From assembly GCA_021831035.1 (NCBI GenBank), contig JAKBNL010000006.1, forward strand, positions 37,652 through 101,651: DNA of 64,000 nt, in the 5' to 3' direction. Positions within the stretch are counted from its first letter, which is position 1. The number at the start of each line of letters is the position of its first letter. Source of the stretch: Actinomycetes bacterium (GTDB lineage Bacteria; Actinomycetota; Acidimicrobiia; Acidimicrobiales; RAAP-2). Under the pieces are notes generated by a model. It made no database searches, was not told the DNA's origin, and worked only from the letters and a program-made list of their open reading frames with translations. Position numbers and translations under genes: made by a program. Shown piece by piece: positions 16,414-60,017 of this stretch.

Positions 16414-16551
16414 CGGTTAGCACGCGATCATGAGATTGCTGGTGCGGGCCCCGACGGGTTCGTGGTGCCGCATCTCAACCGCGTGAAGGGGCGTGAATCC
16501 AGGGTGGCACCGCGTCACTCGCTCCCGACGCCGCCCTCGAGCCCAACGCAC

Positions 16552-17451: not shown

Positions 17452-17681
17452 GCCCGCGAGATTAGGTCGACACCACGGATATTGGGTGTCGGGTCTCGCC
17501 CCGCTTCGCGGGGCGGTCGTGGCCACGCCCAACGCCGCTCCACCGCTGACGGGAGCCACCCTGGAGCACGGGCGTCGACGCCTCCTGGGGGCGCGTGGCC
17601 CCACGGGCGTGTCGAGATGGCGCGCCTCGACGGGCGCACTTTCGGGGTCGAGGACGGGTGGGCCTAATCTAATATGGGCCA

Positions 17682-42045: not shown

Positions 42046-43332
42046 ATGTCAAAGGTTGTGCAGCGTCGCTGGACCGGAGACGGTTCCGGTCCCACACGCC
42101 GTGACCGCCTCGGCTGCGACTACCAATCGTATGTCCCGGACGAGCTCCAGGGTCGTGCGTTCGTCCTGGATGGTGACGTCGCCGCGGACATTGCAGAAGC
42201 AGAAGCAGCGATCCTGAGACTCAACGCAAACGCCACTGCACTCACGAACACCGAAGCCCTTGCACGAATCCTCCTCCGTGCGGAGGCCGTCGCCTCCTCC
42301 CGCATCGAGGGGCTCGAAGTGGGAGCGCGCCGCTTGCTCCACGAGGAGGTCAGTAGAGAGACGGAGGGCAAGTCGGCCGATGTCACCGCATCGGAAGTTC
42401 TTTCGAACATCGACGCAATGGCGTTTGCGGTGAACGCGATCCGCGCGGGCGACCGGATAACGCTCGACGTGGTCCTCGACACTCACAGGCTCCTCCTCGC
42501 CCATACTCGCCTCAGCCATCACGGGGGGCTACTGCGAGGAGAGCAGAACTGGATCGGGGGAAGCTCATACAACCCCTGCTCGGCCGCATTCGTTCCGCCA
42601 CCAGAGAATCTCGTGTTGCCGCTCATGGAAGACCTCGTTGCGTTCTGCAACGACGACGGCTTGCCGCCCGTGGCGCAGGCAGCCATCGTTCACGCGCAGT
42701 TCGAAACCATTCACCCATTCGTCGATGGCAATGGGCGGACGGGTCGCGCCCTGATGCATATCGCTCTCAGACGTCGTGGACTTGCGGAGAAGGTCCTGAC
42801 GCCAGTCTCGCTGGTCCTCGCGACGTGGTCGAAGGCGTATGTCAACGCCCTCACCGAGTATCGGTACTCTGGAGCAGCAGACTCGGCCGATGCTCGGAGG
42901 GGAGTCAATGCCTGGATTTCGCAATTCTCGACTGCGTGCACACGAGCGTGCGCCGATGCCGAGTCATTCGAACGGCGCGCCAGCGAGATCCAAGCTGAGT
43001 GGCGACGGCGAATCGGCAGCATCCGGCGCAACTCTGCGGCCGATCTGCTACTCAAGGCACTGCCTGGTGCACCAGTGCTTACGGTCTCGGGCGCTGCATC
43101 GCTCATCGGACGAACCTTTCCCGCGGCCAACAACGCCATCAGTACGCTCACTGCGGTGGACGTGCTGCGACAAGTGACAGTCGGTAAGCGGAATCGTGCT
43201 TACGAAGCGCCAGATATCATCGCCGCGTTCACCGACCTGGAACGCCAGCTTGCAAGCCCCGAAGGAAGCTCTCTTTCCTCCCTGCCAAGCCGGCCTGTCC
43301 CGCAACGACCCGGGAGCGCTGAAGGGGCATAG
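42046..43332 (+). CDS. fic: Fic family protein (class II, with C-terminal wHTH)
   Basis: Canonical HPFVDGNGRTGR; inhibitory SSRIEG helix N-terminal to it. Confidence 0.93.
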   Translation: MSKVVQRRWTGDGSGPTRRDRLGCDYQSYVPDELQGRAFVLDGDVAADIAEAEAAILRLNANATALTNTEALARILLRAEAVASSRIEGLEVGARRLLHEEVSRETEGKSADVTASEVLSNIDAMAFAVNAIRAGDRITLDVVLDTHRLLLAHTRLSHHGGLLRGEQNWIGGSSYNPCSAAFVPPPENLVLPLMEDLVAFCNDDGLPPVAQAAIVHAQFETIHPFVDGNGRTGRALMHIALRRRGLAEKVLTPVSLVLATWSKAYVNALTEYRYSGAADSADARRGVNAWISQFSTACTRACADAESFERRASEIQAEWRRRIGSIRRNSAADLLLKALPGAPVLTVSGAASLIGRTFPAANNAISTLTAVDVLRQVTVGKRNRAYEAPDIIAAFTDLERQLASPEGSSLSSLPSRPVPQRPGSAEGA

Positions 43333-43795: not shown

Positions 43796-43839
43796 TGGAG
43801 CGGGCGACGGGAATCGAACCCGCGTTCTCAGCTTGGGAA
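43796..43839 (-). repeat. att site: 44-bp 3' fragment of tRNA-Gly(CCC)
   Basis: Reverse complement TTCCCAAGCTGAGAACGCGGGTTCGATTCCCGTCGCCCGCTCCA = anticodon loop, T-arm and CCA. No 5' half follows. Confidence 0.92.
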
Positions 43840-43899
43840 CGGTTCCAGGGCGTGAGAGCCCTTGCGCCACAAGGCCTCGAGGGCGCCGGGCCCGCGCCG

Positions 43900-43976: not shown

Positions 43977-44192
43977 ATGGACACCGCACACGACCCCACC
44001 ACCTGCCCGGGATGCGACCGGGTGCTGCACCTCGCCGAGCTCGCCGACTGGCTCGACGAGAGCCCCCACACCCTCTACAAGTGGTCGGCCGTCGGCTACC
44101 CGACCTTCCCGAGGCGCCTGCGCCTGCAGAACCGTCGGGTCGCGGTCACGTGCCGCGCGACGAAGGCCTGGCTCGCGGAGGTGGCGTCATGA
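43977..44192 (+). CDS. Excisionase/AlpA-like HTH protein
   Basis: 71 aa; LHLAELADWLDESPHTLYKW...FP...RL HTH pattern; ATGA overlap with the integrase. Confidence 0.75.
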   Translation: MDTAHDPTTCPGCDRVLHLAELADWLDESPHTLYKWSAVGYPTFPRRLRLQNRRVAVTCRATKAWLAEVAS

Positions 44193-47202: not shown

Positions 47203-48753
47203 ATGATCTACTGCAGCCACTGCGGCGCTGACAACATCGACGACGGCTCCTTCTGCGTCCGATGTGGCTCGCGCCTGGGTCACGTCGATGGGCCCCGCAA
47301 CGAAGCCATGGGGGAGTCCGCGGACGCGCCCGAGGAAGAACATGGGGATGGCGCCGACGACAGCTCCCCGATCAGTGCCGACACCGAACGATCCCCAAGG
47401 CGGACGAGGAAGCGTGCTCGGTGGGCTGTACTGGCGATAGCGCTTGTACTCATCGTCGGAGGGTCCGTCACCGCCGGGGTGATGCTGCATCGTCACGGGC
47501 GTGGCTCGGGGCCCGCAACACCGACAACAGCGACGGTTCACCTGACGTCGGCGCAGAGCTGCACTCTCAAGACCCTTGACGTGACGAAGCGTCTCTGGGG
47601 GACACCCCTTTCCGATTGGACCAGCGAAATTTCGGCCACGCAGCAACTTCTCCTCGGCCGGTACGGCTCGGGATCGAAGTACCTGAACGCCTTCAATGCG
47701 GCGGTGAGCGTGGGATTCCAGAAGGCTGCCCTCGACGGGGCCCGCAGTGCCCAGATCTCGGAGATCGTGCCCGTCGCCAAGGCTTGCGGAAGCACTCACC
47801 CTCAGACGTTCCTCGGACCTGCCCCGAAAAAGAAGGCCAGCCCAGACTTCAACGTACCCGCCGCACTCGTTGCCGATGGCAGCCACCTCTGGGTAGCGAA
47901 CTTCAATGGAAGTTCAGTCACCGAGCTCAACTTGAGCGACGGCTCCCTCGTGAGGGTCATCTCGGGCTCAACCTACGACTTCAACTTGTCCGCCGCGCTC
48001 GTCGCCCATGGCAGTCACCTCTGGGTGGCGAACAGTAACTCGATCACCGAGCTCAACTTGAGCGACGGCTCCCTCGTGAGGGTCATATCTGGCGCCTCCT
48101 ACGACTTCAGCAATCCCGAGGCCCTCGTGGCTTACGGCAGCCACCTCTGGGTGGCGAACTACAATGGAGGTTCAGTTATCGAACTCACCTTGAGCGACGG
48201 CTCCCTCGTGAGGACCATCTCCGGCTCCACTCAAGGTATCACTGCCCCCCACGCACTCGTTGCAGATGGCAGTCACCTTTGGGTGGCGAACAGTAACTCG
48301 ATCACCGAACTCAACTTGAGCGACGGCTCCCTCGCGAGGACCTTCACTAGTGCCTCCTACCACATCAACGGTCCCGAGCTCGCATCCGACGGCAGCACTC
48401 TTTGGGTGGCGAACTACTACAGCAACTCACTCACCGAGCTCAACTTGAGCGACGGCTCCCTCGTTAGGACCGTCTCTGGTGCCGCCTACGGATTCAATGG
48501 TCCCGATGCCCTCGCATCCGACGGCAGCCACCTCTGGGTGGCTAACGCCCACAGCAACTCGGTCACCGAGCTCAACTTGAGCGACGGCTCTCTCGTGAGG
48601 ACTATCTCCGGTTCCGCCTACGGGTTCGATGGCCCCGACGCGCTCGCCACCGACGGAAGCCACCTCTGGGTGGCTAACGGCGTCGGCAACTCCGTTACCG
48701 AGCTCAACCTGAGCGACGGCTCCTTCGTGAGGACCATCTCCAATGCCTCGTAA
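47203..48753 (+). CDS. Zinc-ribbon + TM + seven-bladed beta-propeller membrane protein
   Basis: N-terminal CSHCG...FCVRCG, one TM helix, seven 42-44 aa repeats ALxxDGSHLWVAN..SxTELNLSDGSLVR. Confidence 0.85.
   Translation: MIYCSHCGADNIDDGSFCVRCGSRLGHVDGPRNEAMGESADAPEEEHGDGADDSSPISADTERSPRRTRKRARWAVLAIALVLIVGGSVTAGVMLHRHGRGSGPATPTTATVHLTSAQSCTLKTLDVTKRLWGTPLSDWTSEISATQQLLLGRYGSGSKYLNAFNAAVSVGFQKAALDGARSAQISEIVPVAKACGSTHPQTFLGPAPKKKASPDFNVPAALVADGSHLWVANFNGSSVTELNLSDGSLVRVISGSTYDFNLSAALVAHGSHLWVANSNSITELNLSDGSLVRVISGASYDFSNPEALVAYGSHLWVANYNGGSVIELTLSDGSLVRTISGSTQGITAPHALVADGSHLWVANSNSITELNLSDGSLARTFTSASYHINGPELASDGSTLWVANYYSNSLTELNLSDGSLVRTVSGAAYGFNGPDALASDGSHLWVANAHSNSVTELNLSDGSLVRTISGSAYGFDGPDALATDGSHLWVANGVGNSVTELNLSDGSFVRTISNAS
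47857..48750 (+). repeat. Seven coding tandem repeats of about 130 bp
   Basis: Recurrent DNA cores cacctctgggtggcgaac and accgagctcaacttgagcgacggctccctcgt. Confidence 0.9.
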
Positions 48754-48930: not shown

Positions 48931-51336
48931 TCATGATGTCCGGTACCAGGCGGGGAACACTGACGAGCCCTTTGTCGGCGCTCGCCAGCAGGTAGGGCAC
49001 AGAACACCCGGGCGCGTCTCTGGGGTCACCACAGAGTGAAGGGCGCGTCCGCCGCAGTGGGGACACGGGATTGCCGAGTACCGAGCGGTCTCGGCGCGTC
49101 CGGACCGCAACAGAACGGGATCTCCCGAAGGTGAGCTCGTTTGCCGACTCAGGTACCGCAGCTGCGTGTCGGTGACTCCCACCGCCAGCATCTCGGCACG
49201 GCTTAGGCCGTCTCTGCATCCACGTAGAGCCTCGAGAGCCGGTGTGCGGGCTTCATCTGGAAGTTGCCACTTGTCCGTACTCCACGAGAAGTCCGGGTCG
49301 CAGTAGACGTCGATGACGTGCCTAGCCCAGTCCGGATCCGTCCCTGGTGCGAGGGGAAGTCCCTTCAGGTGGTCAAGGAGGGTCCTCGAAAGTTCAGGGT
49401 TGGGGCAGGCCGCGACACAGCGCGCGGCTCGCTCAGACAGCCCCGCCTCGATCAGGCTCTGACGCAGCGCGGTGGACGACCGTCGCCGAGACGGGCCACT
49501 CCTTCGAGTCGGCCTCACCTCAACGGCGCCGACGATGGGTCCGAGCACGACGGTGCCGTGCTCGTGGGGCAACTCGATGCACAGCTCCCAGTGGAGTGTG
49601 GGGCCATCAAGGCGCCAGCGCTCCTGAGAGATCACGGCTCGCAGCGAGCGCCGAAGGTCTGAGTCCTCGCGATTTCCCGACTCGGCGAGCGCCGCGATCG
49701 CGTGAGCGACCAGCTCGGCGTTGGAGTTGAAGGTCTCGTCGAGCACCGGGTCCTCGTCGGCCGCCTCGAGGCGAGCGATCTCTTCGCGAAGGCGCTCTCC
49801 GTCACGGCGAAGTCTCTCAACCTCACTCACGAAGTCGCGAGCCAGCCCCTCATCCTCGGCAAGGCCTGCGTTCCTCAGAGCGCGACCTGTAGCCCTCTCG
49901 ACCTCTGTCAGCTCGCGGCGCCGTGCCCTCAGCTCAGCGCGAAGCGGGTTGAGGGGTATCGCCCCACCGATTGGCTGAAAGCGCTGGGCATCGAGATGAG
50001 CCGGAAGCCCACTCTCCACACCGTGGAGGATGCTCTCAGCCAGCGACCTGTGCCACGTGATGCGGTCCACTCGTCCCAGTGCCCTGACGTCGGAGCCTTC
50101 GGGGTTCTCAGGCTGCCACCCGGAGAAGTGCCGCTCGGCAACATGCGGTCGACTCATCAGCACGTAGTCACCTCGGTCAGCGGCAAGGGAGAACTCGTGG
50201 CCGCCGTCAGTGAACTGGAAGAGGCCCGAGAGCGGTGGTGCGCTGTCATGGCTGGCCCCGCCTGTGAGAGGGCGTGAGCTGCGCCGACTCCTGATCCTCT
50301 CGAACGTCTCGTCGTCGGCCCAGCCGCCGTCGGGCACAGGAACGCTGACCCTGAGTCGAAGGGCACCGTGCTCATAGCCCTCGATGCTCTCCACCTCCAC
50401 TCCAGCAAACTCATCGAGCCCGGCGAAGGGGTTTGGCCAGAGGACCTCATGGACGCCTTTCTGATACAGGTCCACCCATCCGATGAGGCTCGCGACGGCG
50501 TCCGAGGGGTTCCGTGCGTCCGCCACGGTGGCGGCTTCGCCGTGAAGCTGTCGGAGCCGTGCGCTGGAGATCCCGATCTCTCCCAGCCGCCGTGTCACAT
50601 CGCCGGCGCTTAGTGACAGGTCGCTGAGGACCTGCAGCATCTCGCGAACGGGCTTCACCTCGTCCTTGTTGATCGCGAGCTTCCGAGCGACCTTTACGTA
50701 TCCCGGAGGATTCGAACTGGGTATCCACTCGTTCCTCTGCTGCTGGGCGACACGTCCGACGGTGTGGCGCTGGACGATGGTGTCGCGCTCAGAGGCTGCG
50801 AACAGCGCGAGGATGCCGAACTGCATGCGGCCCTGGGGCGTGCGGACCTTGATCTCCGTCTCGCCGTGCAGCGTCTCGGTGTGCGCCTCGAGTGCCTCAA
50901 GGATCTGGCTGAGGTAGTTGACCGATCGAAGCAGGCGAGTGACGGACGCGACCCACGTCTCGCGTGGCTGATACGCCTCGAGGATGAGGGTCAACTCCCG
51001 TACGAAGCTGTTCCCGTCCTCAAGGTCGTCGCGGGCCGCCGAGCCCTGTGAGTAGACGTAGAGCACGCCATCACGCTCGACCAGCGCCATGCGGCTGCGG
51101 GCGACTCGCTTGGTGACCGCCCCCCAGCGCTCCGGGCTGTCGAACACCTCCATCCCGGCGGAGAGCAGCTCCGTAGCCCCAGGCAGGTGTCGCACCTTGG
51201 TCAGGGTCTGCTGGATCATGCCCAGCATGAGCAGCCCGTTGTACTCGTCGCTCTCGCGCATGACCACCAGGTGGTCGAGGCCCGGCGAGGCTGCCGCGGC
51301 ACTCGGCCGCGGAGCAGGGGATCGCCGCCTACTCAC
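48931..51336 (-). CDS. Divergent large serine recombinase-like protein
   Basis: VVMRES (candidate RxS), SVTRLLR (DRLxR variant), TPQGR...FAASERDTIVQR...G, PPGY, coiled coil, terminal CPHC...CPTC. AAGGAG RBS. Confidence 0.7.
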   Translation of the reverse strand: MSRRRSPAPRPSAAAASPGLDHLVVMRESDEYNGLLMLGMIQQTLTKVRHLPGATELLSAGMEVFDSPERWGAVTKRVARSRMALVERDGVLYVYSQGSAARDDLEDGNSFVRELTLILEAYQPRETWVASVTRLLRSVNYLSQILEALEAHTETLHGETEIKVRTPQGRMQFGILALFAASERDTIVQRHTVGRVAQQQRNEWIPSSNPPGYVKVARKLAINKDEVKPVREMLQVLSDLSLSAGDVTRRLGEIGISSARLRQLHGEAATVADARNPSDAVASLIGWVDLYQKGVHEVLWPNPFAGLDEFAGVEVESIEGYEHGALRLRVSVPVPDGGWADDETFERIRSRRSSRPLTGGASHDSAPPLSGLFQFTDGGHEFSLAADRGDYVLMSRPHVAERHFSGWQPENPEGSDVRALGRVDRITWHRSLAESILHGVESGLPAHLDAQRFQPIGGAIPLNPLRAELRARRRELTEVERATGRALRNAGLAEDEGLARDFVSEVERLRRDGERLREEIARLEAADEDPVLDETFNSNAELVAHAIAALAESGNREDSDLRRSLRAVISQERWRLDGPTLHWELCIELPHEHGTVVLGPIVGAVEVRPTRRSGPSRRRSSTALRQSLIEAGLSERAARCVAACPNPELSRTLLDHLKGLPLAPGTDPDWARHVIDVYCDPDFSWSTDKWQLPDEARTPALEALRGCRDGLSRAEMLAVGVTDTQLRYLSRQTSSPSGDPVLLRSGRAETARYSAIPCPHCGGRALHSVVTPETRPGVLCPTCWRAPTKGSSVFPAWYRTS

Positions 51337-51478
51337 GCTCCTTCTCCGAGGTCGCTCCCGCCGGGGGCCGGCGACGCGCTAGCTGTGCCATCTGCAGCCA
51401 GGCAGCGGCGATGTGGTCGCGCCGCACGCTCGACCGCAGGAGCCGAGCCGTGGTCCGCCTGGGCCGATTCGCTACCAT
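51329..51478 (-). CDS. Possible 49-aa leaderless protein directly upstream of the recombinase
   Basis: TACACT -10 lies 7 nt before the ATG; the stop overlaps the recombinase start region. Confidence 0.3.
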   Translation of the reverse strand: MVANRPRRTTARLLRSSVRRDHIAAAWLQMAQLARRRPPAGATSEKERE

Positions 51479-51573
51479 CTGGCAGAGTGTAGCAAGTCTC
51501 GGACTGTTGGTTCGAACCGAGACTGCCAGCGCTCTGCACAGATGAAGTGCAAGGCGCCTCGCCGGCCACTCTA

Positions 51574-52965
51574 GATCACGTCCCGCCGAGTGGTGTAATT
51601 CCAAAGGAGCACTTCTCGATGCGCGACCATCTTGTCATTTGACCTTGGCGAGAGCAATCTTTGCCGCAGGCAGAGCGTCACTCTTCAGCTGGTCCATGGA
51701 CTCCTGGCTGAGATAGCGACGCTCCGAGACGCTCCACTCGTCGTGCTGCTCGACACAGACCGCGGTGATGAGACGAAGGGCCGCGGCGTCGTTGGGAAAG
51801 ATGCCGACCACGTTGGTGCGTCTCTTGATCTCCGCGTTGAGCCGCTCGAGCGAGTTGGTCGACCAGATCTTCTGCCAGTGGTTCGTCGGGAAATGACGAA
51901 AGGCGGTGATGTCCTCGGCGGCGTCGAGAAGCATCTCGGCGACGACTGAGAACTGGCGCTTCAGCGTGGCGGCAACTTCCTTCACCTGGCGTTCGACGTG
52001 CTCGGCGTCGGGCTGGGCGAAGATCGTGCGGATCATGGCGGCGACCATCGACTGCTGGTTCTTTGGCACCTTCACGAGCACGTTGCGCATGAAGTGGACC
52101 CGACAGCGCTGCCAGGCGGCCCCGGGAAAGACCTGGGCGATCGCGGCCTTTAGCCCCAAGTGTGAGTCGCTGATCACGAGCTGGACCCCGTGCAGTCCAC
52201 GACCCCGCAGGCTCTGGAGGAACTCGGTCCAGAAGGCCGCGTCCTCTGAGTCACCTATAGCGATGCCCAGCACCTCTCGGCTGGCGTCCTGGGCGACGCC
52301 GGTCGCGACCACGACGGCGCGGCTGACCACCCGTCCCCCCACCCGGGCCTTGACGTAGGTGGCGTCACAGAGCAGGTAGGGAAAGGCCAGGTGGGAGAGG
52401 CTGCGCTCGCGAAAGGCCGCCATCTCCTCATCGAGCGCCGAACAGATCCGCGAGACCTCGGACTTGGATATCCCGGCGTCCACCCCGAGTGCCATCACCA
52501 CGTCGTCGACCTTGCGGGTGGAGACCCCGTGGACGTATGCCTCCATGACAACCGCGTAGAGGGCCTGGTCGATGCGCCGGCGCCGCTCAAGCACGCTCGG
52601 AAAGAAGGAGCCCTTGCGCAGCTTGGGGATCTTGAGCTCGACGTCGCCAGCCTTGGTCGAGACCAGCCGCGGCCGCGATCCGTTTCGCTGGGTCGTGCGA
52701 GCCAGCGAGCGCTCGTGGCGGCCCGCCTGGACGACCTCGGTCACCTCGGCATCGATTAGGGCTTGGTAGAGGAAGGCGACCATCTGGCGAACCAGATCAC
52801 CGCTCTCGTCGCTTTGGAGTTGTTCGAGCACCTCGGATAGGTCAAAATCATGATGGGTCACCGGAGTATTCCTTTCGTGCCTTGCAATGGACACATCAAG
52901 AACTACTCCGGTGGCCCGTCACCACGACGGACCTCAGGATTTACACCACTTCAGGGGACGCCAAC
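51574..52965 (-). mobile_element. Complete IS256-family element (1392 bp)
   Basis: 29-bp imperfect TIRs (21/29 match); 8-bp target duplication CCACTCTA at 51566-51573 and 52966-52973. Confidence 0.93.
51635..52861 (-). CDS. IS256 family DDE transposase
   Basis: AYVHGVSTRKV, LLCDATYVK, VISDSHLGL, WQRCRVHF, STNSLERLNAEIKRR. Confidence 0.95.
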   Translation of the reverse strand: MTHHDFDLSEVLEQLQSDESGDLVRQMVAFLYQALIDAEVTEVVQAGRHERSLARTTQRNGSRPRLVSTKAGDVELKIPKLRKGSFFPSVLERRRRIDQALYAVVMEAYVHGVSTRKVDDVVMALGVDAGISKSEVSRICSALDEEMAAFRERSLSHLAFPYLLCDATYVKARVGGRVVSRAVVVATGVAQDASREVLGIAIGDSEDAAFWTEFLQSLRGRGLHGVQLVISDSHLGLKAAIAQVFPGAAWQRCRVHFMRNVLVKVPKNQQSMVAAMIRTIFAQPDAEHVERQVKEVAATLKRQFSVVAEMLLDAAEDITAFRHFPTNHWQKIWSTNSLERLNAEIKRRTNVVGIFPNDAAALRLITAVCVEQHDEWSVSERRYLSQESMDQLKSDALPAAKIALAKVK

Positions 52966-53325
52966 CCACTCTACGAAAGACGACGGGCCCAGACGGGCGT
53001 GACTTATCGGATGCCACACCCGCACGGCGGACCTGCCGGAGGTCGCGGATCATGGCGGCGAGGTGGGGACTGGCGTAGAGGCTCGGCATGCCGGTGACAG
53101 TCCGTGGCAGGGGGCCTGGCGCAATCGACGCCGTTTGGGGCCCACTTCGCCTGAACTCGGTGAAGGGGAGGGCTTGAGCTCTGTGGCGAGAGAGGGCAGC
53201 GGCGGGCGCACGAGCTGCCGGTCACGTGTGGAGCCCCGGGTGCCTCGCCGAGAGGGGCCTTCTTCGGGCGAGGGGGCGCGAACTGACAGCCTCTCTCTGT
53301 GAGACGGCGCTTGTAAGCTGGCCCC

Positions 53326-54687
53326 ATGAGCCGACCCGCCTTCACGTTCGTGGACCTGTTCGCTGGTATCGGCGGGTTCCACGCCGCGCTCAGCGCGATG
53401 GGTGGCGAGTGTGTCTACGGAGTCGAGATCGACCCCGCGGCGGCGGCGGTCTATCGGCGCAACTGGGGGATGGACATCCTCGGCGACATCACCGCCGACG
53501 CGAGCGACACCACGATGCGAGTGCCTCGCCATGATGTCCTCTGCGCCGGCTTCCCGTGCCAGCCGTTCTCCAAGAGCGGCGCTCAGCGCGGCATGGAGGA
53601 GACGCGTGGGACCTTGTACTGGAACATCCTGAAGGTCATCCAGGTGCGTCGGCCGGCCGTGGTGCTGCTCGAGAACGTCCGGAACCTCGCGGGCCCGCGC
53701 CATCAGCACGAGTGGGATGTGATCATCGACACCCTGAGGTCTGAGGGCTATCGCGTCTCTGGGGCGCCGGCGGTGTTCTCCCCCCACCTGCTCCCACGAG
53801 AGCTTGGCGGTCGGCCCCAGGTCCGAGAGAGGGTCTTCATCACGGCTACACGGTTGCCAAGGGGCCGAGGCCACTCGCCCGTTGCCGAGCCGGTAGCCGA
53901 CAATCGCCCCATAGCAGGCTGGGATCCGTGGACGTGGAACCTCGACGAGGGCCTTCCGCTTGACGCCGATCATGAGGTTGAGGGCTGCGAGCTGACCGAC
54001 GCGGAGCGGCTATGGATCGACGCTTGGGACGACTTCGTGCAACGAATGTGGGAGGCGCGCAGCGGCCGGCGCCTGCCAGGGTTCCCACTATGGGCCGATC
54101 ACTGGGTCATTCCATCGAGCCTCGATGAGAGGGAACTTGAGCACGAACCCAAGTGGAAGGCCGACTTCATGAGGAAGAACGCGGCGTTCTACGCCGAGCA
54201 CCGCAAGGTGATTGACCGTTGGACCAAGAGGTGGGACGTCTACTCCGACGCCTTTCCGCCCTCGCGGCGCAAGCTCGAGTGGCAGGCCCAGGACACGCCA
54301 CGTCTCTGGGAGACGGTCATGCACTTTCGCCCCTCGGGTATCCGAGCCAAACGCCCGACGTACCTGCCTGCCCTGGTGGCGATCGCACAGACGAGCATCG
54401 TCGGCAGTCGGGGTCGACGCCTCTCTCCCCGGGAGGCGGCTCGACTCCAAGGCCTTCCCGAGTGGTTCGACTTCGGGGGTCAGAGCCCAGCGGTCACCTA
54501 CCGCCAACTCGGCAACGGCGTCTCGGTGGGTGCGGTGTGGCACATCCTGCGACGACATGTCGAGCGGGACCAGGACGTGCTGAGGGTCACACGCCCCGCT
54601 CTCCTAGAGGCCGTGTTCAAAGCACCCGGGTGCCCAGATGAAGTGCTTGAGCAGATGGGGCCCGACAGGGACGACGCGGTCGCCTAG
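53326..54687 (+). CDS. dcm: DNA (cytosine-5) methyltransferase
   Basis: DLFAGIGG, GFPCQPFS, LENV, QVRERVF, RLQGLP, LGNGV. TAAGCT -10 lies 6 nt before the ATG. Confidence 0.95.
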   Translation: MSRPAFTFVDLFAGIGGFHAALSAMGGECVYGVEIDPAAAAVYRRNWGMDILGDITADASDTTMRVPRHDVLCAGFPCQPFSKSGAQRGMEETRGTLYWNILKVIQVRRPAVVLLENVRNLAGPRHQHEWDVIIDTLRSEGYRVSGAPAVFSPHLLPRELGGRPQVRERVFITATRLPRGRGHSPVAEPVADNRPIAGWDPWTWNLDEGLPLDADHEVEGCELTDAERLWIDAWDDFVQRMWEARSGRRLPGFPLWADHWVIPSSLDERELEHEPKWKADFMRKNAAFYAEHRKVIDRWTKRWDVYSDAFPPSRRKLEWQAQDTPRLWETVMHFRPSGIRAKRPTYLPALVAIAQTSIVGSRGRRLSPREAARLQGLPEWFDFGGQSPAVTYRQLGNGVSVGAVWHILRRHVERDQDVLRVTRPALLEAVFKAPGCPDEVLEQMGPDRDDAVA

Positions 54688-54870
54688 GTCCCAGCGCACG
54701 CGCCCCTCCAGGCCCGTCAAGTGGGTCAGGCGTATGCCAGTCTCGTCTCCGACACCAACAGACCTAGTTGCGCAAACCAACAACTAGACCCTGGACCTCG
54801 TTCACTTAGGCGAATGTCGGCGGTTCCGGGGTGCTGTAATTAAGGAGAGGGCACCCCGAAGGACGGCGCA

Positions 54871-55770
54871 GTGTCTAACGACGAGTCAACCGAATCCGAG
54901 ACCGCGGACAAATGGCTTCGTGGCCAACTCAGCCATTCAGACCCCGAAGTCACCGAGCTCTACCACTACACGAATCAAAGAGGGTTCTTAGGAATTCTCG
55001 CTGATCAAGGGATCTGGGCCACGCACGTTGGTCACTTGAACGACAAGTCGGAAGTTGAGCACGCTGTAACGATGCTCCAATCGCACGTCCGTTCACTTCG
55101 CTCCAGAACTCCGCCACGGGCCTCGCGCCTTCTCGACTGGATCCTCACGACACTTGAAGGCATGTCGGCCCAACGGACGGGGCTGTTCGTGGTGTCCTTC
55201 TCTGCCAACCCAGACTCTCTCACGCAGTGGGATCGCTACGCTCAGGACTTCGGATACGCAATGGGCTTCGATCCGAAGCGGTTGAATTTGGTGCACCGTA
55301 TCAGCCCCACCGATACTTGCCATGGAAGGCTGATCCGGGTCTTTTACGCGGAAGATGCGAAGCAAAGCCTGATCTCCGCCACAATCGATAAGTTGCTAAA
55401 TCGAGCTGACGAATTGAGCGTGTCAGGCTTTGCGATAGACCCTGACTGGGACATCTGGAACCGTGAACTCCTTCAGTGCCTCGCTCTCCTGTTCACCGCC
55501 CTCAAGCACGAGGCGTACACGTCGGAAGACGAATACAGACTCGTTGTGACCCACGATCCCACGCAGCCCACATCAGCCAGAGAGGGAAAGCACGGTGTCG
55601 CCACGTACGTCACTCTCTCCCCTGATCAAGAGAACGACCTTCCGCTTGTCTCGGTAGTGGTAGGACCAAGTCATTATCCCGAAGTCGCCAGGTTTGCAGT
55701 TCAACAGATCCTTGTTCGGCGCCTAGGCGTTGGGCAGATCCGCAACTCCAACATTCCGAAGAGGACATGA
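54871..55770 (+). CDS. DUF2971-like protein
   Basis: LYHYT, WATH..HLND.SE, SFS...SLTQW.RYA, KH.AY..E.EYR. Confidence 0.8.
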   Translation: MSNDESTESETADKWLRGQLSHSDPEVTELYHYTNQRGFLGILADQGIWATHVGHLNDKSEVEHAVTMLQSHVRSLRSRTPPRASRLLDWILTTLEGMSAQRTGLFVVSFSANPDSLTQWDRYAQDFGYAMGFDPKRLNLVHRISPTDTCHGRLIRVFYAEDAKQSLISATIDKLLNRADELSVSGFAIDPDWDIWNRELLQCLALLFTALKHEAYTSEDEYRLVVTHDPTQPTSAREGKHGVATYVTLSPDQENDLPLVSVVVGPSHYPEVARFAVQQILVRRLGVGQIRNSNIPKRT

Positions 55771-55924
55771 CGCCAGTCGCATGGAGGGTTCTGGACAACG
55801 GTGATTGGCCTTGAACTATGCAAGGGGCTGGGGCATGCAGGAGGGGAAGCCACTAACCCTGCTTACGCCAGTCCAGAACGCGTCAGTCGGAGATGCTCTA
55901 CCTCGGCTTCCTGACTCGTACGGA

Positions 55925-56266
55925 CTACCCTTCCGTCCAGGAAGGGTCGGGAGCGATGCCGAAGTCCTCCTTCGCGCCTGCGAGGCCGCTAGCCCAAGCG
56001 GTGAGCTGGTCGATGAGCTCGTCAGGGGAAAGACGGGCCTGGGCATCGAGCATGCGACGTGTCGCGATGTCCCGTGGAACTACGCGCACCTGTAGGTCGA
56101 GTTCGCATGCCTCGAACACACGCAGAAGCGAGTCGCAGTTCGGCTGAGTTTCACGTCTCTCCCAACGAGTAACCGTGGATCGCGAGACCCCGAGTCGCTT
56201 GGCGAGCGCCTCCTGCGAGAGCCCTGCCCTCTTGCGGGCCTCGATGACGAGCTGGGCACTGGTCAC
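55925..56266 (-). CDS. XRE-family HTH regulator
   Basis: EARKRAGLSQEALAKRLGVSRSTVTRWER.ETQP. TACCGT -10 lies 6 nt before the GTG. Confidence 0.8.
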   Translation of the reverse strand: MTSAQLVIEARKRAGLSQEALAKRLGVSRSTVTRWERRETQPNCDSLLRVFEACELDLQVRVVPRDIATRRMLDAQARLSPDELIDQLTAWASGLAGAKEDFGIAPDPSWTEG

Positions 56267-56657
56267 GTCGCCACGGTAGCGATGGCCGGTGACCACAGAG
56301 GGCGATAGCGGACCAGATGTCGGACGACTCCGGCGGGCTAGGTGCTGCCACGGCCGGGATGACGATGGACTCTTGACCAGGAACGTCGCCTCAGGGCCGT
56401 TAGATGGCGATGTCTGGACGGGGGCTGGCGACACCGCAGACCAGGGGCCCGATCCCGGCTCGGCACCCATCGTCGGCGAATCGCCCTCATCGACGCTTGG
56501 CGACGAGAGGAAGACACGAGTCCCGTCTGTTGCTGGATCTGGCAGGAGCTCAATCGGGACCTCTACCATCGGGGCTCGTGACGGCGGTTGCGAAGGCAGG
56601 GCGAGAGGCCTCGTGACAGGGGTCAGCGGCGTCGCAGGTGATCTCGGGAGGGTCGAG

Positions 56658-57962
56658 GTGACACTCGCCATCGCGAGCACACTTGGAATCGACCCGCCAG
56701 AGGTCCGTCGGGGTAGCACCGTCCCGACCGAGTTCCTGGACCGGATACTCCGGGCCCTAGGTATCGACCCGTCGGGCCTTCAGAACTCCTACAGGAAGAT
56801 GGAGCGAGCCCTCGCAGAAGTCGGGGAGACCTACGACCCAGCTGAGGACTCCAGTGAAGCGCGCGGTCGGACGGGCGGTGGCACCATCACGAACGCCGGC
56901 TACCGCAAGCTGCTGCGGGGACTGAGTGGCGAGCCAAGGTGCTTCATCTTGAGCGTCGCAGACAGCCCCGCGAGCTCTCAGTACGGCGACGTGATGGGCA
57001 GCTCGTATGGGTTCGCCGTCACCGTTTCGGGGAGTCGACTGCTGATTGCAGGCGGGGCGGGTTCACGTGCCATCTTCTACCGAACCCGTAACGCGTCCGA
57101 TGAGCCTCGAAGGGCGTTCGTCGGCACAGCCGTGGTCACGACCATCGAGAGGACAGGCCCGGACGACTTCCAGGCACACCTCTCGGGCTATCGAGCGCTG
57201 CCAGAGCCGGTTCTCGACAAGGACGTGAGCATCGCCGGCTGGAACCGTCAGCACGGCATCACCGAGATCAGCCACGACACCTTCGTGGCCCTAGAGCGGG
57301 CGGGACGTGGAGGCGGGGATGAGTCTGGGCCGTCACATGGTGAACGTCCTGCGACTCTCGGCCCGGGTCCGGAGTCGCCGGCGACACCACCGGTCGCCTC
57401 AGTCGTGCCCGTTCCGGGCGACGAGACAGAGGACCCACTCGCCGGCGCGGGACGGATTGACGGCCCAGTCGACCTCAGCGTCTGTGCAGATCCCCTCCCC
57501 TCGGACCTTCCACTACCGTCCGGGCCGCCATCACCAGATCTCCACCCGGCGCTGCCAGTCGAGGGAGCCGGCGGTCGCCGGGGAAGGCGTCGACCCCCAG
57601 TCGAGCAGCGAAGGGTCGACAAGTTCGTCGAGGAGCGGGCGATCTTCCTGGCCACCCAGTACATGACGGAGTGGGGCTGGAGGCTGAGCCGGGACTGTCA
57701 GGCCCTCGGAGTCGGGTATGACCTCGAGTTCGAGCGAGACGGGACTTTCCGCCACGTGGAGGTGAAGGGCATCGCCGGAAACCAGGTCGAGTTCAACCTC
57801 ACCGCACTGGAGTGGCGCCGAGTCCTCGTGGACGAGTCGTTCATGGTGGTGGCCGTCACAGGCGCCCTGAGTCCGACCACAACTCGGATCCGCGTGCTGA
57901 CTCGAGATCAGCTGCAGGCAGCCGAGAGAAGCCCAGTCCAGTATCGGCTGAGGCTCAGGTGA
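56658..57962 (+). CDS. Multidomain nuclease: helical N-domain + EVE/PUA-like domain + DUF3883 PD-(D/E)XK
   Basis: GGGAGG RBS. C-terminal VEERAI...GYDL...HVEVKG...LT..EW is a clear match; the middle YGDV.GSSY.F...IFYR...AFVG.A.V segment is a weaker call. Confidence 0.72.
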   Translation: MTLAIASTLGIDPPEVRRGSTVPTEFLDRILRALGIDPSGLQNSYRKMERALAEVGETYDPAEDSSEARGRTGGGTITNAGYRKLLRGLSGEPRCFILSVADSPASSQYGDVMGSSYGFAVTVSGSRLLIAGGAGSRAIFYRTRNASDEPRRAFVGTAVVTTIERTGPDDFQAHLSGYRALPEPVLDKDVSIAGWNRQHGITEISHDTFVALERAGRGGGDESGPSHGERPATLGPGPESPATPPVASVVPVPGDETEDPLAGAGRIDGPVDLSVCADPLPSDLPLPSGPPSPDLHPALPVEGAGGRRGRRRPPVEQRRVDKFVEERAIFLATQYMTEWGWRLSRDCQALGVGYDLEFERDGTFRHVEVKGIAGNQVEFNLTALEWRRVLVDESFMVVAVTGALSPTTTRIRVLTRDQLQAAERSPVQYRLRLR

Positions 57963-58121
57963 CGTGCCCCACGGCGACCGGCCAGAGGGCTGGCTGTCGC
58001 TTCCCCCATCCTGGCTGAGGGATCGCGTCCCTGCGGAGACCCTGGTCTCCTTGAAAAGGACCGCGCCGTGGCGTCGCGGCCTAGGAGCGCCCCGGAGGCC
58101 GAGACTCGGTAGCCTCGCCCC

Positions 58122-58727
58122 GTGGAGCTGCAGCAGTTCACGGACCTGATTGCCGCAGGGCTGGAGAGGGCTGACGCGCTCAGGCCCGGGCCTCCCCCCT
58201 CACGCACCGGGACGATCTATCAGGCAGGAGTCGGTGCCCACAGCGAGGACCGCATGGTGGAGCTCGCACTCGCGGCGGTGTCGGATCGGCTAAATGGAGT
58301 GACGGTCGAGACTCGGGTCCCCTACCCGAGGTCTGGGCGTATCAAGTGCGACGTCCGTCTGAGTGGGGACACGGACTGGGCCATCGAGGTGAAGCTCCTG
58401 CGCCGCCTCGGTGACAACGGTAAGCCCAACGACAACATCCTCATGCATATCCTCTCGCCCTACAAGCAGGACCGCAGCGCGGTCACCGACTGCGTGAAGC
58501 TCGCCCAGTCCGGGTTCGCCGCGAGGGAGGCGGTCATGATCATCGGCTTCGAGTACCCGGAGTGGCCTCTGGAGCCGGCGGTGAAGGCATTCGAGCGCAT
58601 CGCCAGCGATCTCGTGAGCCTCCGGCCGTGTGCGCCCGCCAGGTTCCGTGGACTCGTCCACCCGGTGCAGCGAGAGGGTGCCGTGTTCGCATGGGAGATC
58701 ACCGGCGCGAAGTCGGCGTTCCTCTAG
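58122..58727 (+). CDS. Putative PD-(D/E)XK nuclease
   Basis: SED...KCDV...AIEVK core. TAGCCT -10 lies 6 nt before the GTG. Confidence 0.6.
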   Translation: MELQQFTDLIAAGLERADALRPGPPPSRTGTIYQAGVGAHSEDRMVELALAAVSDRLNGVTVETRVPYPRSGRIKCDVRLSGDTDWAIEVKLLRRLGDNGKPNDNILMHILSPYKQDRSAVTDCVKLAQSGFAAREAVMIIGFEYPEWPLEPAVKAFERIASDLVSLRPCAPARFRGLVHPVQREGAVFAWEITGAKSAFL

Positions 58728-58733
58728 GCGCAC

Positions 58734-59267
58734 ATGGGTGCAAGAGGCGCTGACGGCATCCCGAGCGCAGAGCGAGGGGATGCGCATGAACTCGTGGGAA
58801 CGCGGTCGCGCCCTCCCGCGGACCCCGCGTCCTGGGCCAGCTCTGAGGCGGCGCGGCGGACGATGCGCGGGAACCGCTCCAAGGACACCCGACCCGAGGT
58901 CGCTGTTCGCTCGGCCCTGCATCGGGCCGGCTTGCGCTTTCGCAAGCACTTCCCGGTGATCCCGGGATCTCGCTCTCGCGTCGACGTGGCCTTCCCTCGG
59001 TGGCGCGTCGCCGTCCAGGTCGACGGGTGCTTCTGGCACGGCTGTCCCGACCACGGGACCCAGCCCGTGACCCATGCCGAGTACTGGACGGAGAAGATCC
59101 GGCGCAACGTCGAGCGCGACAGGCGCTGCGATGACGCCCTCGCCGAGGCGGGCTGGACCGTTCTGCGATTCTGGGAGCACGAGGAGACAGCGGCCGTGGT
59201 GACCGCTGTGCAGCATGCACTCAAGGAGTGCTCGACGCGCGCGCTGCAGCCGTCCTTGCACGAGTGA
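58734..59267 (+). CDS. vsr: Very short patch repair endonuclease
   Basis: MRGNRSKDTRPE, VDVAF, DGCFWHGC, YW..KI.RN..RD, GW.VLRFWEH. Confidence 0.93.
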   Translation: MGARGADGIPSAERGDAHELVGTRSRPPADPASWASSEAARRTMRGNRSKDTRPEVAVRSALHRAGLRFRKHFPVIPGSRSRVDVAFPRWRVAVQVDGCFWHGCPDHGTQPVTHAEYWTEKIRRNVERDRRCDDALAEAGWTVLRFWEHEETAAVVTAVQHALKECSTRALQPSLHE

Positions 59268-59542: not shown

Positions 59543-59586
59543 TGGAGCGGGCGACGGGAATCGAACCCGCGTTCTCAGCTTGGGAA
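59543..59586 (-). repeat. att site: second 44-bp 3' fragment of tRNA-Gly(CCC)
   Basis: Identical to 43796-43839; again no tRNA 5' half adjacent. Confidence 0.92.
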
Positions 59587-60017
59587 GGGACGCGTCGAAT
59601 TCGGGACGACACACAACCTTCCTGATGGCGGGGACTCCAATGTGCTCCTAGATCTCGAAGATCGGCCCACGGGCAAGATTCGGGCAATATCTCGAGCGGT
59701 CTCTTTGAACTCGTACGGGGCAGTTCCGCGCCCGAACGCACACCTCGCGAAGGGAACTGACTCGTCTCACAAGCGTCGATTGACGTCAATCGGTCTACGT
59801 CGGTGGAAAGCCAAGGACTCCTGGGGCAGGTCAGAGTCTCTATGAGACGCGGGGCGGTGAAGGGCGCGTAGAGATCAGACGAACCTGATGGATAGCTCCA
59901 CGTCGACGGCACAATCAAGGCGGACCAACTCGTGGACGGTCGACGGTTGGTCCATTGAAGTGTTCCCGACAATCGGCAGAGCAGCCAGAATACGGGCGGC
60001 TGGCAGGTTATGCGGCC

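What the first reader, a model, noticed from the sequence alone, without database searches (positions are those of the whole stretch)
48931..51336. Highly divergent 801-aa serine recombinase nested inside a tyrosine-integrase element
It retains the alphaE-helix and PxGY signatures. It has an insertion after the candidate catalytic RES, TRLLR instead of DRLxR, a cysteine-less zinc-ribbon position (LSGLFQFTDGG), and a new CxxC...CxxC at the extreme C-terminus after about 200 extra residues. It could be a novel LSR subfamily, a domesticated DNA-binding protein, or the integrase of a nested cargo unit.
Basis: partly seen in the sequence, partly recalled or inferred. Interest (0 to 1): 0.6.

Follow-up and report, generated by a model that had tools for sequence, protein, structure and literature searches.

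The report
Divergent large serine recombinase operon
This is an intact gene for an unusual, uncharacterised branch of the large serine recombinases (DNA cut-and-paste enzymes), with two small partner genes, one of which a jumping gene has split here; the branch could widen the toolbox of site-specific integrases.

Summary

- **Family:** about 300 clusters at 50% identity, all identified hosts Actinomycetota. It is rare in genomes: 1 of 400 other sampled genomes.
- **Fold and profile:** both place it among large serine recombinases (LSRs), with catalytic domain, recombinase domain, zinc-ribbon-type domain and inserted coiled coil.
- **Catalytic residues:** R27, S29, R134, R137 and R190 are 98-100% conserved where aligned, so it is probably active, not domesticated.
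- **Differences from canonical LSRs:** a roughly 40-aa insertion after helix A; S/T in place of Asp in DRLxR; no zinc-binding cysteines in the zinc-ribbon domain; a family-specific 195-aa C-terminal domain ending in an invariant four-Cys ribbon, with no solved structural match.

New here:
- The gene ends a compact operon, ORF-A then overlapping ORF-B then recombinase.
- ORF-A is predicted to dock at the coiled-coil base, where directionality factors bind.
- A conserved 47-nt dyad-symmetric element lies inside ORF-A.
- In this genome a 1392-bp IS256-family element splits ORF-A.

The operon sits inside a 15.7-kb tRNA-Gly island that has its own tyrosine integrase, a pairing seen in six of about nine informative contexts, the window included. 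The recombination sites and biological role remain unknown. I rate it a new variant of a known kind.

The parts
48931..51336 (-). Gene for the 801-aa divergent large serine recombinase (GTG start, intact)
   Evidence: LSR fold; profile-profile match
50722..51285 (-). Catalytic (resolvase-type) domain, residues about 18-205. It contains R27-E-S29, a roughly 40-aa insertion at 48-90, T133-R134-L-L-R137, and E183-R184...R190 in helix E.
   Evidence: Pfam Resolvase half-domain. Family 131-201 aligns to gamma-delta resolvase 63-132. Structural alignments start at model residues 18-21, against residues 1-3 of Bxb1, PhiC31 and 4bqq and residue 11 of the SPbeta-type integrase 9dxh. Conservation.
50269..50721 (-). 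Recombinase-domain equivalent, residues about 206-356, beginning with PPGY
   Evidence: hhalign; VIA alignment to 4bqq, 4kis and 9ter. No Pfam Recombinase hit.
49519..50268 (-). Zinc-ribbon-domain equivalent without zinc-binding cysteines, residues about 357-606. The inserted coiled coil is residues 464-525 (49762-49947).
48934..49518 (-). Family-specific C-terminal domain, residues 607-801: a helical part, a weakly winged-helix-like part, then the CxxC...CxxC ribbon at C758-C783 (48988-49065)
   Evidence: Model pLDDT 94.6. No PDB match: Foldseek E > 0.7, VIA best Z 4.8. Atlas TM < 0.5.
51329..51478 (-). ORF-B: a 49-aa conserved overlapping reading frame (motif S..RRD.V..AW..L). Its stop lies just past the recombinase start codon. 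It is intact here.
   Evidence: Codon-position identities are 0.59/0.62/0.43 in this frame, against 0.43/0.54/0.60 in the ORF-A frame.
51478..51524 (-). Conserved 47-nt dyad-symmetric element inside ORF-A (core 51495-51524), one copy per locus, ending at the ORF-B start codon
51333..51573 (-). 3' part of ORF-A (the small partner gene). Its stop overlaps the recombinase start as GTGA.
   Evidence: homologues
52974..53089 (-). 5' part of ORF-A (ATG at 53089), separated from the rest by the IS
   Evidence: Removing the IS and one duplicated target copy gives a 118-aa ORF.
51574..52965 (-). IS256-family insertion sequence, 1392 bp. The Mutator-family transposase is at 51635-52894. Imperfect terminal inverted repeats; 8-bp target duplication CCACTCTA at 51566-51573 and 52966-52973.
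   Evidence: It is absent at the same place in L012 and L013. Single copy in the assembly.
43796..43842 (-). tRNA-Gly(CCC) 3' fragment, the distal boundary repeat of the 15.7-kb island
59543..59589 (-). Second tRNA-Gly(CCC) 3' fragment, the proximal boundary repeat
   Evidence: The intact tRNA is on contig C13.
44012..45700 (+). Tyrosine integrase of the island. An alternative gene call starts at 44189, with a 71-aa gene at 43977-44192.

Best explanation
The gene encodes a probably active member of a distinct, uncharacterised clade of large serine recombinases (LSRs) found in Actinomycetota.

**Architecture.** It keeps the LSR domain order: catalytic domain with Ser nucleophile S29, recombinase domain, second DNA-binding domain, and a coiled coil inserted in that domain. 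The second DNA-binding domain has lost its zinc ligands. A family-specific C-terminal domain of about 195 aa, ending in a four-Cys zinc ribbon, has been added. I infer that this is an extra DNA-binding module.

**Operon.** The gene is the last in a compact operon. ORF-A is about 118 aa, and only its first 77 or so residues are conserved. ORF-B is about 50 aa and lies in an overlapping frame. The recombinase follows. ORF-A is predicted to dock on the second DNA-binding domain at the base of the coiled coil. That is where recombination directionality factors bind known LSRs, so it is most likely a directionality or activity cofactor.

**Inferred function.** By analogy with LSRs, a recombinase dimer binds a dyad-symmetric site, synapses with a partner site, and exchanges strands by subunit rotation after Ser29 attack. 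The module would then integrate or excise a DNA unit that travels inside tRNA-targeting islands carrying defence cargo.

**State in this genome.** An IS256-family insertion has split ORF-A and cut the recombinase off from its native upstream region. The system is therefore probably impaired or deregulated here.

**Shown versus inferred.** Shown: homology, fold, residue conservation, operon structure, IS insertion, island setting. Inferred: catalytic activity, cofactor role, DNA sites, biological role.
For: **Family.** There are 28 full-length homologues at 44-81% identity. An exhaustive profile search found 307 clusters at E < 1e-30.

**Homology to LSRs.**
- Pfam Resolvase scores 37.4 bits against a 23.3 cut-off.
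- The PHROG LSR integrase family matches at E 3.9e-17.
- hhalign against 11 canonical LSRs gives probability 98.4% and E 7e-15, aligning family residues 93-586 to LSR 54-490. This covers the recombinase domain, the zinc-ribbon domain and the coiled coil.

**Fold.**
- The AlphaFold2 model has mean pLDDT 78.
- The 15 Foldseek matches at E <= 0.001 are all LSR structures, E 9e-12 to 1e-4.
- VIA-align matches model 18-591 to an SPbeta-type integrase: Z 10.3, 384 residues aligned, rmsd 19.2 A across flexible domains.
- VIA-align matches model 188-589 to the Listeria integrase C-terminal domain: Z 8.0, 274 of 305 residues.

**Catalytic serine.** The structural alignments begin at model residue 20 against Bxb1 residue 1, and model residue 19 against PhiC31 residue 2. 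That places S29 on S10 and S12 respectively.

**Catalytic residues by sequence.** R134, R137, E183, R184 and R190 align with gamma-delta resolvase R68, R71, E118, R119 and R125.

**Conservation in 102 diverse members.** R27 97/97, S29 97/97, R134 and R137 102/102, R190 100/102, and the four C-terminal Cys 101-102/102.

**Partner genes.**
- ORF-A overlaps the recombinase start in eight loci, counting the IS-restored copy in the window. ORF-B is conserved in nine loci.
- The complex prediction supports binding but does not show it. The score is 0.68 and the best of 3 controls is 0.00. That mark was reached by 58 of 80 solved complexes and by 2 of 110 mismatched pairs, and these counts hold only roughly because my own alignments were used.
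- The three runs agree in at least 28% of contacts, and the partner's pLDDT is at least 46.
- The interface is recombinase 437-447, 532-552 and 596/598 with ORF-A 2-22 and 34-41.
- Known directionality factors bind the second DNA-binding domain and the coiled-coil base (PMC11722253).

**IS insertion.**
Against: - No recombination sites (att, res or inversion sites) were identified, and no recombined junction was seen.
- The first 92 residues cannot be aligned to canonical recombinases by profile methods. The S29 assignment therefore rests on a predicted structure, on the R-x-S spacing and on conservation.
- The Asp of DRLxR is replaced. The equivalents of gamma-delta D36 and R45 are not evident.
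- In six of about nine informative contexts, the window included, a complete tyrosine integrase module lies 1-8 kb away, with an Xis-like gene in three of them. The serine recombinase is therefore not needed to explain integration at the tRNA.
- Only one copy of the dyad element exists per locus.
- ORF-A is poorly modelled on its own, with pLDDT about 46.
Confidence: 0.6

Rival explanations
1. Backbone accessory recombinase of tyrosine-integrase islands. It is not the integrase of a separate nested unit. Instead it acts on the single dyad element upstream of its own gene, either to resolve multimers or tandem arrays of the excised island, or to give the island circle a second integration route. 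This resembles a res site placed upstream of a resolvase gene.
For: It co-occurs with non-orthologous tyrosine integrases, three of them with Xis-like genes, in the window, L001, L002, L006, L010 and L042/L044. The layout is often similar. A conserved dyad-symmetric element lies about 160-190 nt upstream of the recombinase start. The islands form tandem arrays at tRNA-Gly here.
Against: The protein has LSR architecture, with a coiled coil and a directionality-factor-like partner, rather than a small resolvase with accessory sites. L043, L013 and L014 show no tyrosine integrase within the available flanks. The element may equally be an operator, an RNA hairpin, or a consequence of coding constraint; covariation is not significant.
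Confidence: 0.2
2. Catalytically dead, domesticated DNA-binding protein, for example a regulator or defence component, that merely retains an LSR-like fold.
For: Several features diverge: an insertion in the catalytic domain, Asp67-equivalent replaced, no alignable D36 or R45, zinc ligands lost, a new C-terminal domain. Its neighbours are mostly defence genes.
Against: The R-x-S motif, both Arg of the (D)RLxR motif and the helix-E Arg are 98-100% conserved among aligned members across 102 members that are otherwise only about 20-50% identical. Such conservation is not expected without catalysis. There is no PADLOC defence-family match.
Confidence: 0.07
3. DNA invertase that switches expression of the adjacent divergently transcribed C5 methyltransferase and restriction cargo (phase variation).
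For: It is divergent from a C5 DNA methyltransferase in the window, L012 and L013. One source names relatives 'DNA invertase Pin-like'.
Against: No inverted-repeat pair flanks the intergenic or promoter region in the window or in the IS-free relatives. More distant homologues have quite different neighbours. The protein is four times the size of Hin/Gin-type invertases and has LSR domains.
Confidence: 0.05

Closest known systems
Large serine recombinases / serine integrases (Bxb1, PhiC31, SPbeta SprA, Listeria A118-type integrase; Pfam Resolvase + Recombinase + Zn_ribbon_recom)
   Same: The domain order is the same: catalytic domain, helix E, recombinase domain, second DNA-binding domain with an inserted coiled coil. 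The R-x-S, RLxR and helix-E Arg residues are kept. The P-x-G-Y start of the recombinase domain is kept. A small partner protein is predicted to bind at the coiled-coil base, as directionality factors do.
   Different: It is 801 aa, against about 450-610. It has a roughly 40-aa insertion between helix A and strand 2. S/T replaces Asp before the first Arg. There are no zinc-binding cysteines in the second DNA-binding domain. It has an extra 195-aa C-terminal domain with its own four-Cys ribbon and no solved relative. Pfam Recombinase and Zn_ribbon_recom models do not detect it. The partner genes are translationally linked directly upstream. It usually sits inside islands that already have a tyrosine integrase.
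Small serine resolvases and invertases (gamma-delta/Tn3 resolvase, Hin, Gin)
   Same: The C-terminal half of the catalytic domain aligns by sequence: family 131-201 to gamma-delta 63-132. A dyad-symmetric element lies upstream of the gene, reminiscent of res.
   Different: The protein is four times larger, has LSR-type DNA-binding domains instead of a simple helix-turn-helix, and has only a single copy of the candidate site.
Recombination directionality factors of serine integrases (e.g. SPbeta SprB, PhiC31 gp3, Bxb1 gp47)
   Same: ORF-A is small, has no family assignment, and is predicted to contact the second DNA-binding domain and the base of the coiled coil (PMC11722253).
   Different: It has no sequence similarity to any known factor. 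It is encoded immediately upstream and overlaps the recombinase start, so it would be co-expressed rather than separately regulated. A second overlapping ORF (ORF-B) has no known counterpart.

Membership tests
Serine recombinase superfamily | Resolvase-type catalytic domain | tested here: met
   Pfam PF00239 scores 37.4 bits against a 23.3 cut-off, though only for profile positions 68-144. The predicted b1-aA-b2-aB-b3-aD-b4-aE topology aligns from model residues 18-21 with Bxb1, PhiC31 and SPbeta-type structures.
Serine recombinase superfamily | Nucleophilic Ser at the end of strand 1 in an R-x-S motif, with two Arg of the DRLxR motif and an Arg in helix E | tested here: met
   R27-E-S29, R134, R137 and R190 are 98-100% conserved among aligned members across 102 members. 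R134, R137 and R190 align by sequence with gamma-delta R68, R71 and R125. S29 is placed on Bxb1 S10 and PhiC31 S12 only by the offsets of the structural alignment. Profile alignment of the first 92 residues failed.
Serine recombinase superfamily | Asp preceding the first Arg (DRLxR; gamma-delta D67) | tested here: not met
   It is T133 here. Across the family the position is S 59, T 20, N 8, D 7 and G 4 of 102.
Large serine recombinases | Recombinase domain after helix E | tested here: met
   There is no Pfam PF07508 hit. hhalign does align residues 206-356 with the recombinase domain of 11 canonical LSRs. VIA aligns model 185-356 to PhiC31 147-346 (Z 7.2, rmsd 4.0 A, 136 residues).
Large serine recombinases | Zinc-ribbon domain with four zinc-binding Cys | tested here: not met
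   The domain aligns, but the Cys positions hold F/T/D/G and other residues. The median Cys count in residues 360-460 is 0, and no column exceeds 5 of 102.
Large serine recombinases | Coiled-coil motif inserted in the second DNA-binding domain | tested here: met
   Helices 464-492 and 496-525 are in the model. They align with the LSR coiled coil in hhalign and in VIA.
Large serine recombinases | Recombination between defined attP and attB sites, with direction set by a directionality factor | not testable with these tools
   No att sites were found. A candidate cofactor (ORF-A) and a candidate site (the dyad element) are only predictions.

The most novel reading that the evidence does not exclude
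The ORF-A / ORF-B / recombinase module is a self-contained mobile or cassette-capturing unit of a new kind. It would be an LSR-derived enzyme with a third, zinc-ribbon DNA-binding domain and constitutively co-translated cofactors. Using the dyad element inside its own cofactor gene as its recombination site, it would insert or exchange defence cargo within tRNA islands that belong to unrelated tyrosine integrases. Recombination at that site would also switch the cofactor gene on or off.
Probability: 0.12. Interest if true: 0.8.

Novelty: new variant of a known kind. Interest (0 to 1): 0.52.

Why it matters
LSRs are leading tools for inserting large DNA into genomes. Surveys that require the Pfam Recombinase and Zn_ribbon_recom domains would miss this clade, because neither model detects it.

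A clade that has dropped the zinc ligands of the second DNA-binding domain bears directly on how LSRs read their sites and set direction. So do its extra, strictly conserved C-terminal zinc-ribbon domain and its candidate cofactors encoded in the same operon.

Its repeated residence inside islands that already own a tyrosine integrase, next to changing defence cargo, raises a testable question: why does an island carry two site-specific recombination systems?

For this genome alone, the result is a well-explained annotation: a divergent recombinase operon, with an IS-disrupted partner gene, in a tRNA-Gly island.

Tried and rejected
- **Profile alignment of the N-terminal 92 residues to canonical recombinases.** hhalign on residues 15-215 and 15-60 of a 102-member alignment gave no confident alignment of RES to the catalytic Ser. 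That point therefore rests on structure and conservation.
- **Empty-site comparison.** Same-genus and same-order genomes share no DNA-level synteny with the flank, so the island or module ends could not be mapped that way.
- **Conserved 3' flank or att motif after the stop codon.** None was found in the window, L012, L013 or L014.
- **Repeats within the island.**
  - The only direct repeats are the tRNA fragments and the repeats inside the beta-propeller gene.
  - Inverted repeats are only weak, chance-like pairs.
- **Second copy of the dyad element.** None in the window at up to 3 mismatches, and none in the loci.
- **RNA-structure reading of the dyad element.**
  - RNAalifold gives a 7-bp stem with a covariation term near 0.
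  - In the pair count, 79 of 500 shuffles reach the observed covariation score.
  - There is no Rfam match.
  - The RNA reading is neither supported nor excluded.
- **C-terminal domain fold.**
  - Foldseek against the PDB gave nothing below E 0.7.
  - VIA wide gave best Z 4.8 to MarR/ArsR-type winged helices, which is below the level that means more than a common arrangement.
  - The Atlas gave TM below 0.5.
- **Defence-system libraries.** No PADLOC hit for the recombinase or ORF-A.
- **Literature.** Three searches found no description of this clade.
Full report
**1. The observation**

The window has an open frame at 48931-51336 on the minus strand, 801 aa with a GTG start. Its codon-position GC (GC3 0.77) is that of a real gene in this roughly 65-75% GC genome.

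Homologues share the residues upstream of 'MRES' ('SRRR...LDHLVV'). The long start is therefore right, not the shorter database call that begins at MRES.

- RES at residues 27-29.
- T-R-L-L-R at 133-137.
- PPGY at 210-213.
- 'PPLSGLFQFTDGG' at 367-379.
- C758/C761 and C780/C783.

**2. A conserved family**

- A word-indexed search found 28 full-length relatives at 44-81% identity, all about 800 aa.
- An exhaustive profile search of 1.84 billion representatives found 307 clusters at E < 1e-30 and 520 at E < 1e-10.
- Named hosts are all Actinomycetota: Actinomycetes, Acidimicrobiia and Nitriliruptoria.
- Sources label the proteins only as 'recombinase family protein' or 'DNA invertase Pin-like'.
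- The family is rare in genomes. Only 1 of 400 other sampled Actinomycetota genomes has a match at E <= 1e-40.
- The window's genome has one copy, plus two canonical serine recombinases elsewhere.

**3. It is a large serine recombinase by homology and by fold**

*Sequence evidence*
- Pfam sees only the second half of the Resolvase domain: residues 128-203, 37.4 bits against a 23.3 cut-off. It sees no Recombinase or Zn_ribbon_recom domain.
- A family profile aligns residues 131-201 with gamma-delta resolvase 63-132. The equivalences are R134=R68, R137=R71, E183=E118, R184=R119 and R190=R125.
- Profile-profile comparison with 11 canonical LSRs from related genomes gives probability 98.4% and E 7e-15. 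It covers family residues 93-586 against LSR 54-490, which includes the recombinase domain, the zinc-ribbon domain and the coiled coil.
- In that alignment the canonical 'LLxGLxxCxxCG' falls on 'PPLSGLFQFTDGG'.

*Structural evidence*
- An AlphaFold2 model built from 28 sequences has mean pLDDT 78.
- All 15 Foldseek matches to solved structures at E <= 0.001 are LSRs: SPbeta-type, Bxb1, PhiC31 and Listeria integrases, at E 9e-12 to 1e-4.
- VIA-align matches model 18-591 to chain residues 11-537 of an SPbeta-type integrase (Z 10.3, 384 aligned; rmsd 19.2 A because the domains are hinged).
- VIA-align matches model 188-589 to nearly the whole Listeria integrase C-terminal domain (Z 8.0, 274 of 305 aligned).

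**4. The catalytic serine**

Profile methods cannot align the first 92 residues. Three other lines of evidence bear on the point:
- The model puts S29 at the end of strand 1 (22-28), before helix A (34-47). That is where the nucleophile sits in all serine recombinases.
- The structural alignments start at model residue 20 against Bxb1 residue 1, and model residue 19 against PhiC31 residue 2. These offsets place S29 on Bxb1 S10 and PhiC31 S12.
- In 102 diverse full-length members, R27 and S29 are present in all 97 sequences that cover the position. R134 and R137 are present in 102 of 102, and R190 in 100 of 102.

The residue-level equivalence is still structural inference, not experiment.

**5. 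What differs from known LSRs**

1. About 40 extra residues (48-90: two short helices and a hairpin) lie between helix A and strand 2.
2. The Asp of DRLxR is S or T in 79 of 102 members and Asp in only 7.
3. The zinc-ribbon domain has no conserved Cys. The median is 0 Cys per sequence in residues 360-460.
4. Residues 607-801 form a compact extra domain. Modelled alone with 85 sequences it reaches pLDDT 94.6 and pTM 0.87.
   - Its four Cys are invariant.
   - It has no significant solved relative: Foldseek E > 0.7, and VIA best Z 4.8 to MarR/ArsR-type winged helices over residues 685-801.
   - A winged-helix-plus-zinc-ribbon DNA-binding role is my inference only.

**6. The operon (new)**

*ORF-A*
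- In eight loci, counting the IS-restored copy in the window, a small gene of 116-119 aa ends in an ATGA/GTGA overlap with the recombinase start.
- Only its first 77 or so residues are conserved: M..LY.SP.LA.RIR.LR ... TL.SNLQSES.YTLP.

*ORF-B*
- Downstream of that conserved part, conservation moves to another frame. A 49-72-aa ORF-B starts at a conserved ATG (GTG in one locus) and carries the motif S..RRD.V..AW..L.
- Codon-position identities are 0.59/0.62/0.43 in the ORF-B frame, against 0.43/0.54/0.60 for the same DNA read in the ORF-A frame. ORF-B is therefore the frame under protein-level selection there.

*Predicted binding of ORF-A*
- A complex prediction of ORF-A with its recombinase (from locus L013) supports binding but does not show it.
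- The score is 0.68, and the best of three controls is 0.00.
- That mark was reached by 58 of 80 solved complexes and by 2 of 110 mismatched pairs. These counts hold only roughly, because my own alignments were used.
- The runs agree in at least 28% of contacts, and the partner's pLDDT is at least 46.
- The contacts are ORF-A residues 2-22 and 34-41 with recombinase 437-447, 532-552 and 596/598. That is the second DNA-binding domain at the foot of the coiled coil.
- Known directionality factors, though unrelated in sequence, bind the same region (PMC11722253).

**7. A conserved DNA element (new)**

- Inside ORF-A, and ending at the ORF-B start, 47 nt are almost invariant in ten loci whose flanks are unalignable.
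- Mean pairwise identity at codon positions 1/2/3 is 0.79/0.80/0.65 in the element, against 0.46/0.45/0.37 in the conserved N-terminal part of ORF-A.
- The element uses A/T-ending codons in a GC-rich gene.
- The core is dyad-symmetric, ACTCTCG...CGAGAGT. Here it reads AGTCTCGG...CCGAGACT, with a change on both arms. In L006 it is a perfect 14+14 palindrome.
- 79% of cells pair, against at most 46% when the partners are slid by one to three columns. Covariation is not above shuffles.
- There is one copy per locus and no Rfam match.
- It could be the recombinase's site, an operator, or an mRNA hairpin in front of ORF-B. I cannot tell which.

**8. The IS insertion**

- In the window, ORF-A is in two pieces: 53089-52974 and 51573-51333.
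- Between them lies a 1392-bp IS256-family element at 51574-52965. It has an intact Mutator-family transposase (E 9e-139), imperfect terminal repeats, and a perfect 8-bp target duplication CCACTCTA.
- Removing the IS and one duplicated copy restores a 118-aa ORF.
- The relatives L012 and L013 are collinear across the site without the IS.
- ORF-B, the dyad element and the recombinase are untouched. They are, however, separated from whatever promoter lies upstream of ORF-A.

**9. Setting**

*The island*
- Two 47-bp direct repeats, at 43796-43842 and 59543-59589, are 3' fragments of tRNA-Gly(CCC).
- They bound a 15.7-kb island. Its gene order is: a 71-aa gene, the tyrosine integrase, an alpha/beta hydrolase, a zinc-ribbon/beta-propeller protein, the recombinase operon, then a C5 methyltransferase, DUF2971, a NOV_C protein, a 201-aa protein and Vsr.
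- The intact tRNA-Gly lies on contig C13 next to a second tyrosine integrase. Two islands are therefore stacked at this tRNA.

*Co-occurrence with tyrosine integrases*
- A tyrosine integrase lies 1-8 kb from the homologue in L001 (at tRNA-Leu), L002 (at tRNA-Glu), L006, L010 and L042/L044. In L002, L006 and L042/L044 it comes with an AlpA/HTH_17 gene.
- These integrases fall into groups with no detectable similarity to one another.
- None is seen in the flanks available for L043, L013 or L014.

*Variable surroundings*
- Neighbouring cargo differs from locus to locus and is mostly defence-related. Examples are methyltransferase/Vsr, DUF499-DUF1156-SNF2, HipA, DndB and large helicases.
- Nucleotide homology between the window and its 68-81%-identical relatives ends within about 50 nt of the recombinase stop codon.
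- The operon therefore behaves as a portable module in changing surroundings. This fits a unit with the recombinase gene at its edge, or a conserved backbone gene flanking a cargo hot spot. The data do not decide between the two.

**10. Verdict**

Domestication is unlikely. The role as integrase of a nested unit is open.

I rate the finding a new variant of a known kind. The protein is clearly an LSR relative that works, by inference, like one. It fails two textbook features, the DRLxR Asp and the zinc ligands. It adds a new domain and an unusual cofactor operon.

Interest is moderate. A serine-recombinase specialist would want to test it, but nothing here overturns the known mechanism.

Noticed in passing
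window 43796-43842 and 59543-59589; own genome contig C13:2259-2332 (locus L051): Tandem array of two islands at tRNA-Gly(CCC). Two displaced 3' fragments lie in the window. The intact tRNA is on another contig, directly next to a second tyrosine integrase (379 aa, PF00589 E 1e-14). The window's contig ends 772 bp past the window, inside the second island.
   Followed up: yes
window 47203-48753 (+): A 516-aa protein with an N-terminal zinc ribbon and a repetitive beta-propeller-like body (weak Lactonase / DUF4988 / DUF6923 hits). Its DNA carries internal repeats of about 127-260 nt. It lies between the tyrosine integrase and the recombinase, and is absent from related loci.
   Followed up: partly
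window 53326-59267: Restriction-modification-like cargo: a C5 cytosine methyltransferase (E 4e-70), DUF2971, a NOV_C-domain protein, a 201-aa protein and a Vsr mismatch endonuclease. In relative L012 the DUF2971 and NOV_C pair is replaced by a single 243-aa gene between conserved flanks.
   Followed up: partly
window 42046-43332 (+): A Fic/DOC-family gene sits in low-GC DNA (0.625) just outside the distal tRNA fragment. It may be a remnant of an older island whose boundary repeat has decayed.
   Followed up: no
window about 12000-20000: A second stretch of lower GC (0.62-0.66, against 0.70-0.77 around it). It may be another acquired region.
   Followed up: no
own genome contig C7:88075-91470 (loci L005/L032): A canonical 549-aa LSR with the usual Cys-rich zinc ribbon lies next to a 308-aa protein that looks like a replication initiator of actinomycete integrative elements. 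This is a separate mobile element in the same genome.
   Followed up: no
locus L043:12714-13946: A Mutator/IS256-family transposase also lies directly beside the recombinase homologue in an unrelated metagenome contig, this time downstream. Contigs L042, L044 and L045 all break just upstream of the recombinase gene. This suggests repeats or strain variation at that spot.
   Followed up: no
locus L044:213-253: In the 815-831-aa Acidimicrobiia subgroup the conserved dyad element is not found. A different perfect 14-nt inverted repeat (13-nt spacer) lies about 525 nt upstream of the recombinase gene.
   Followed up: no
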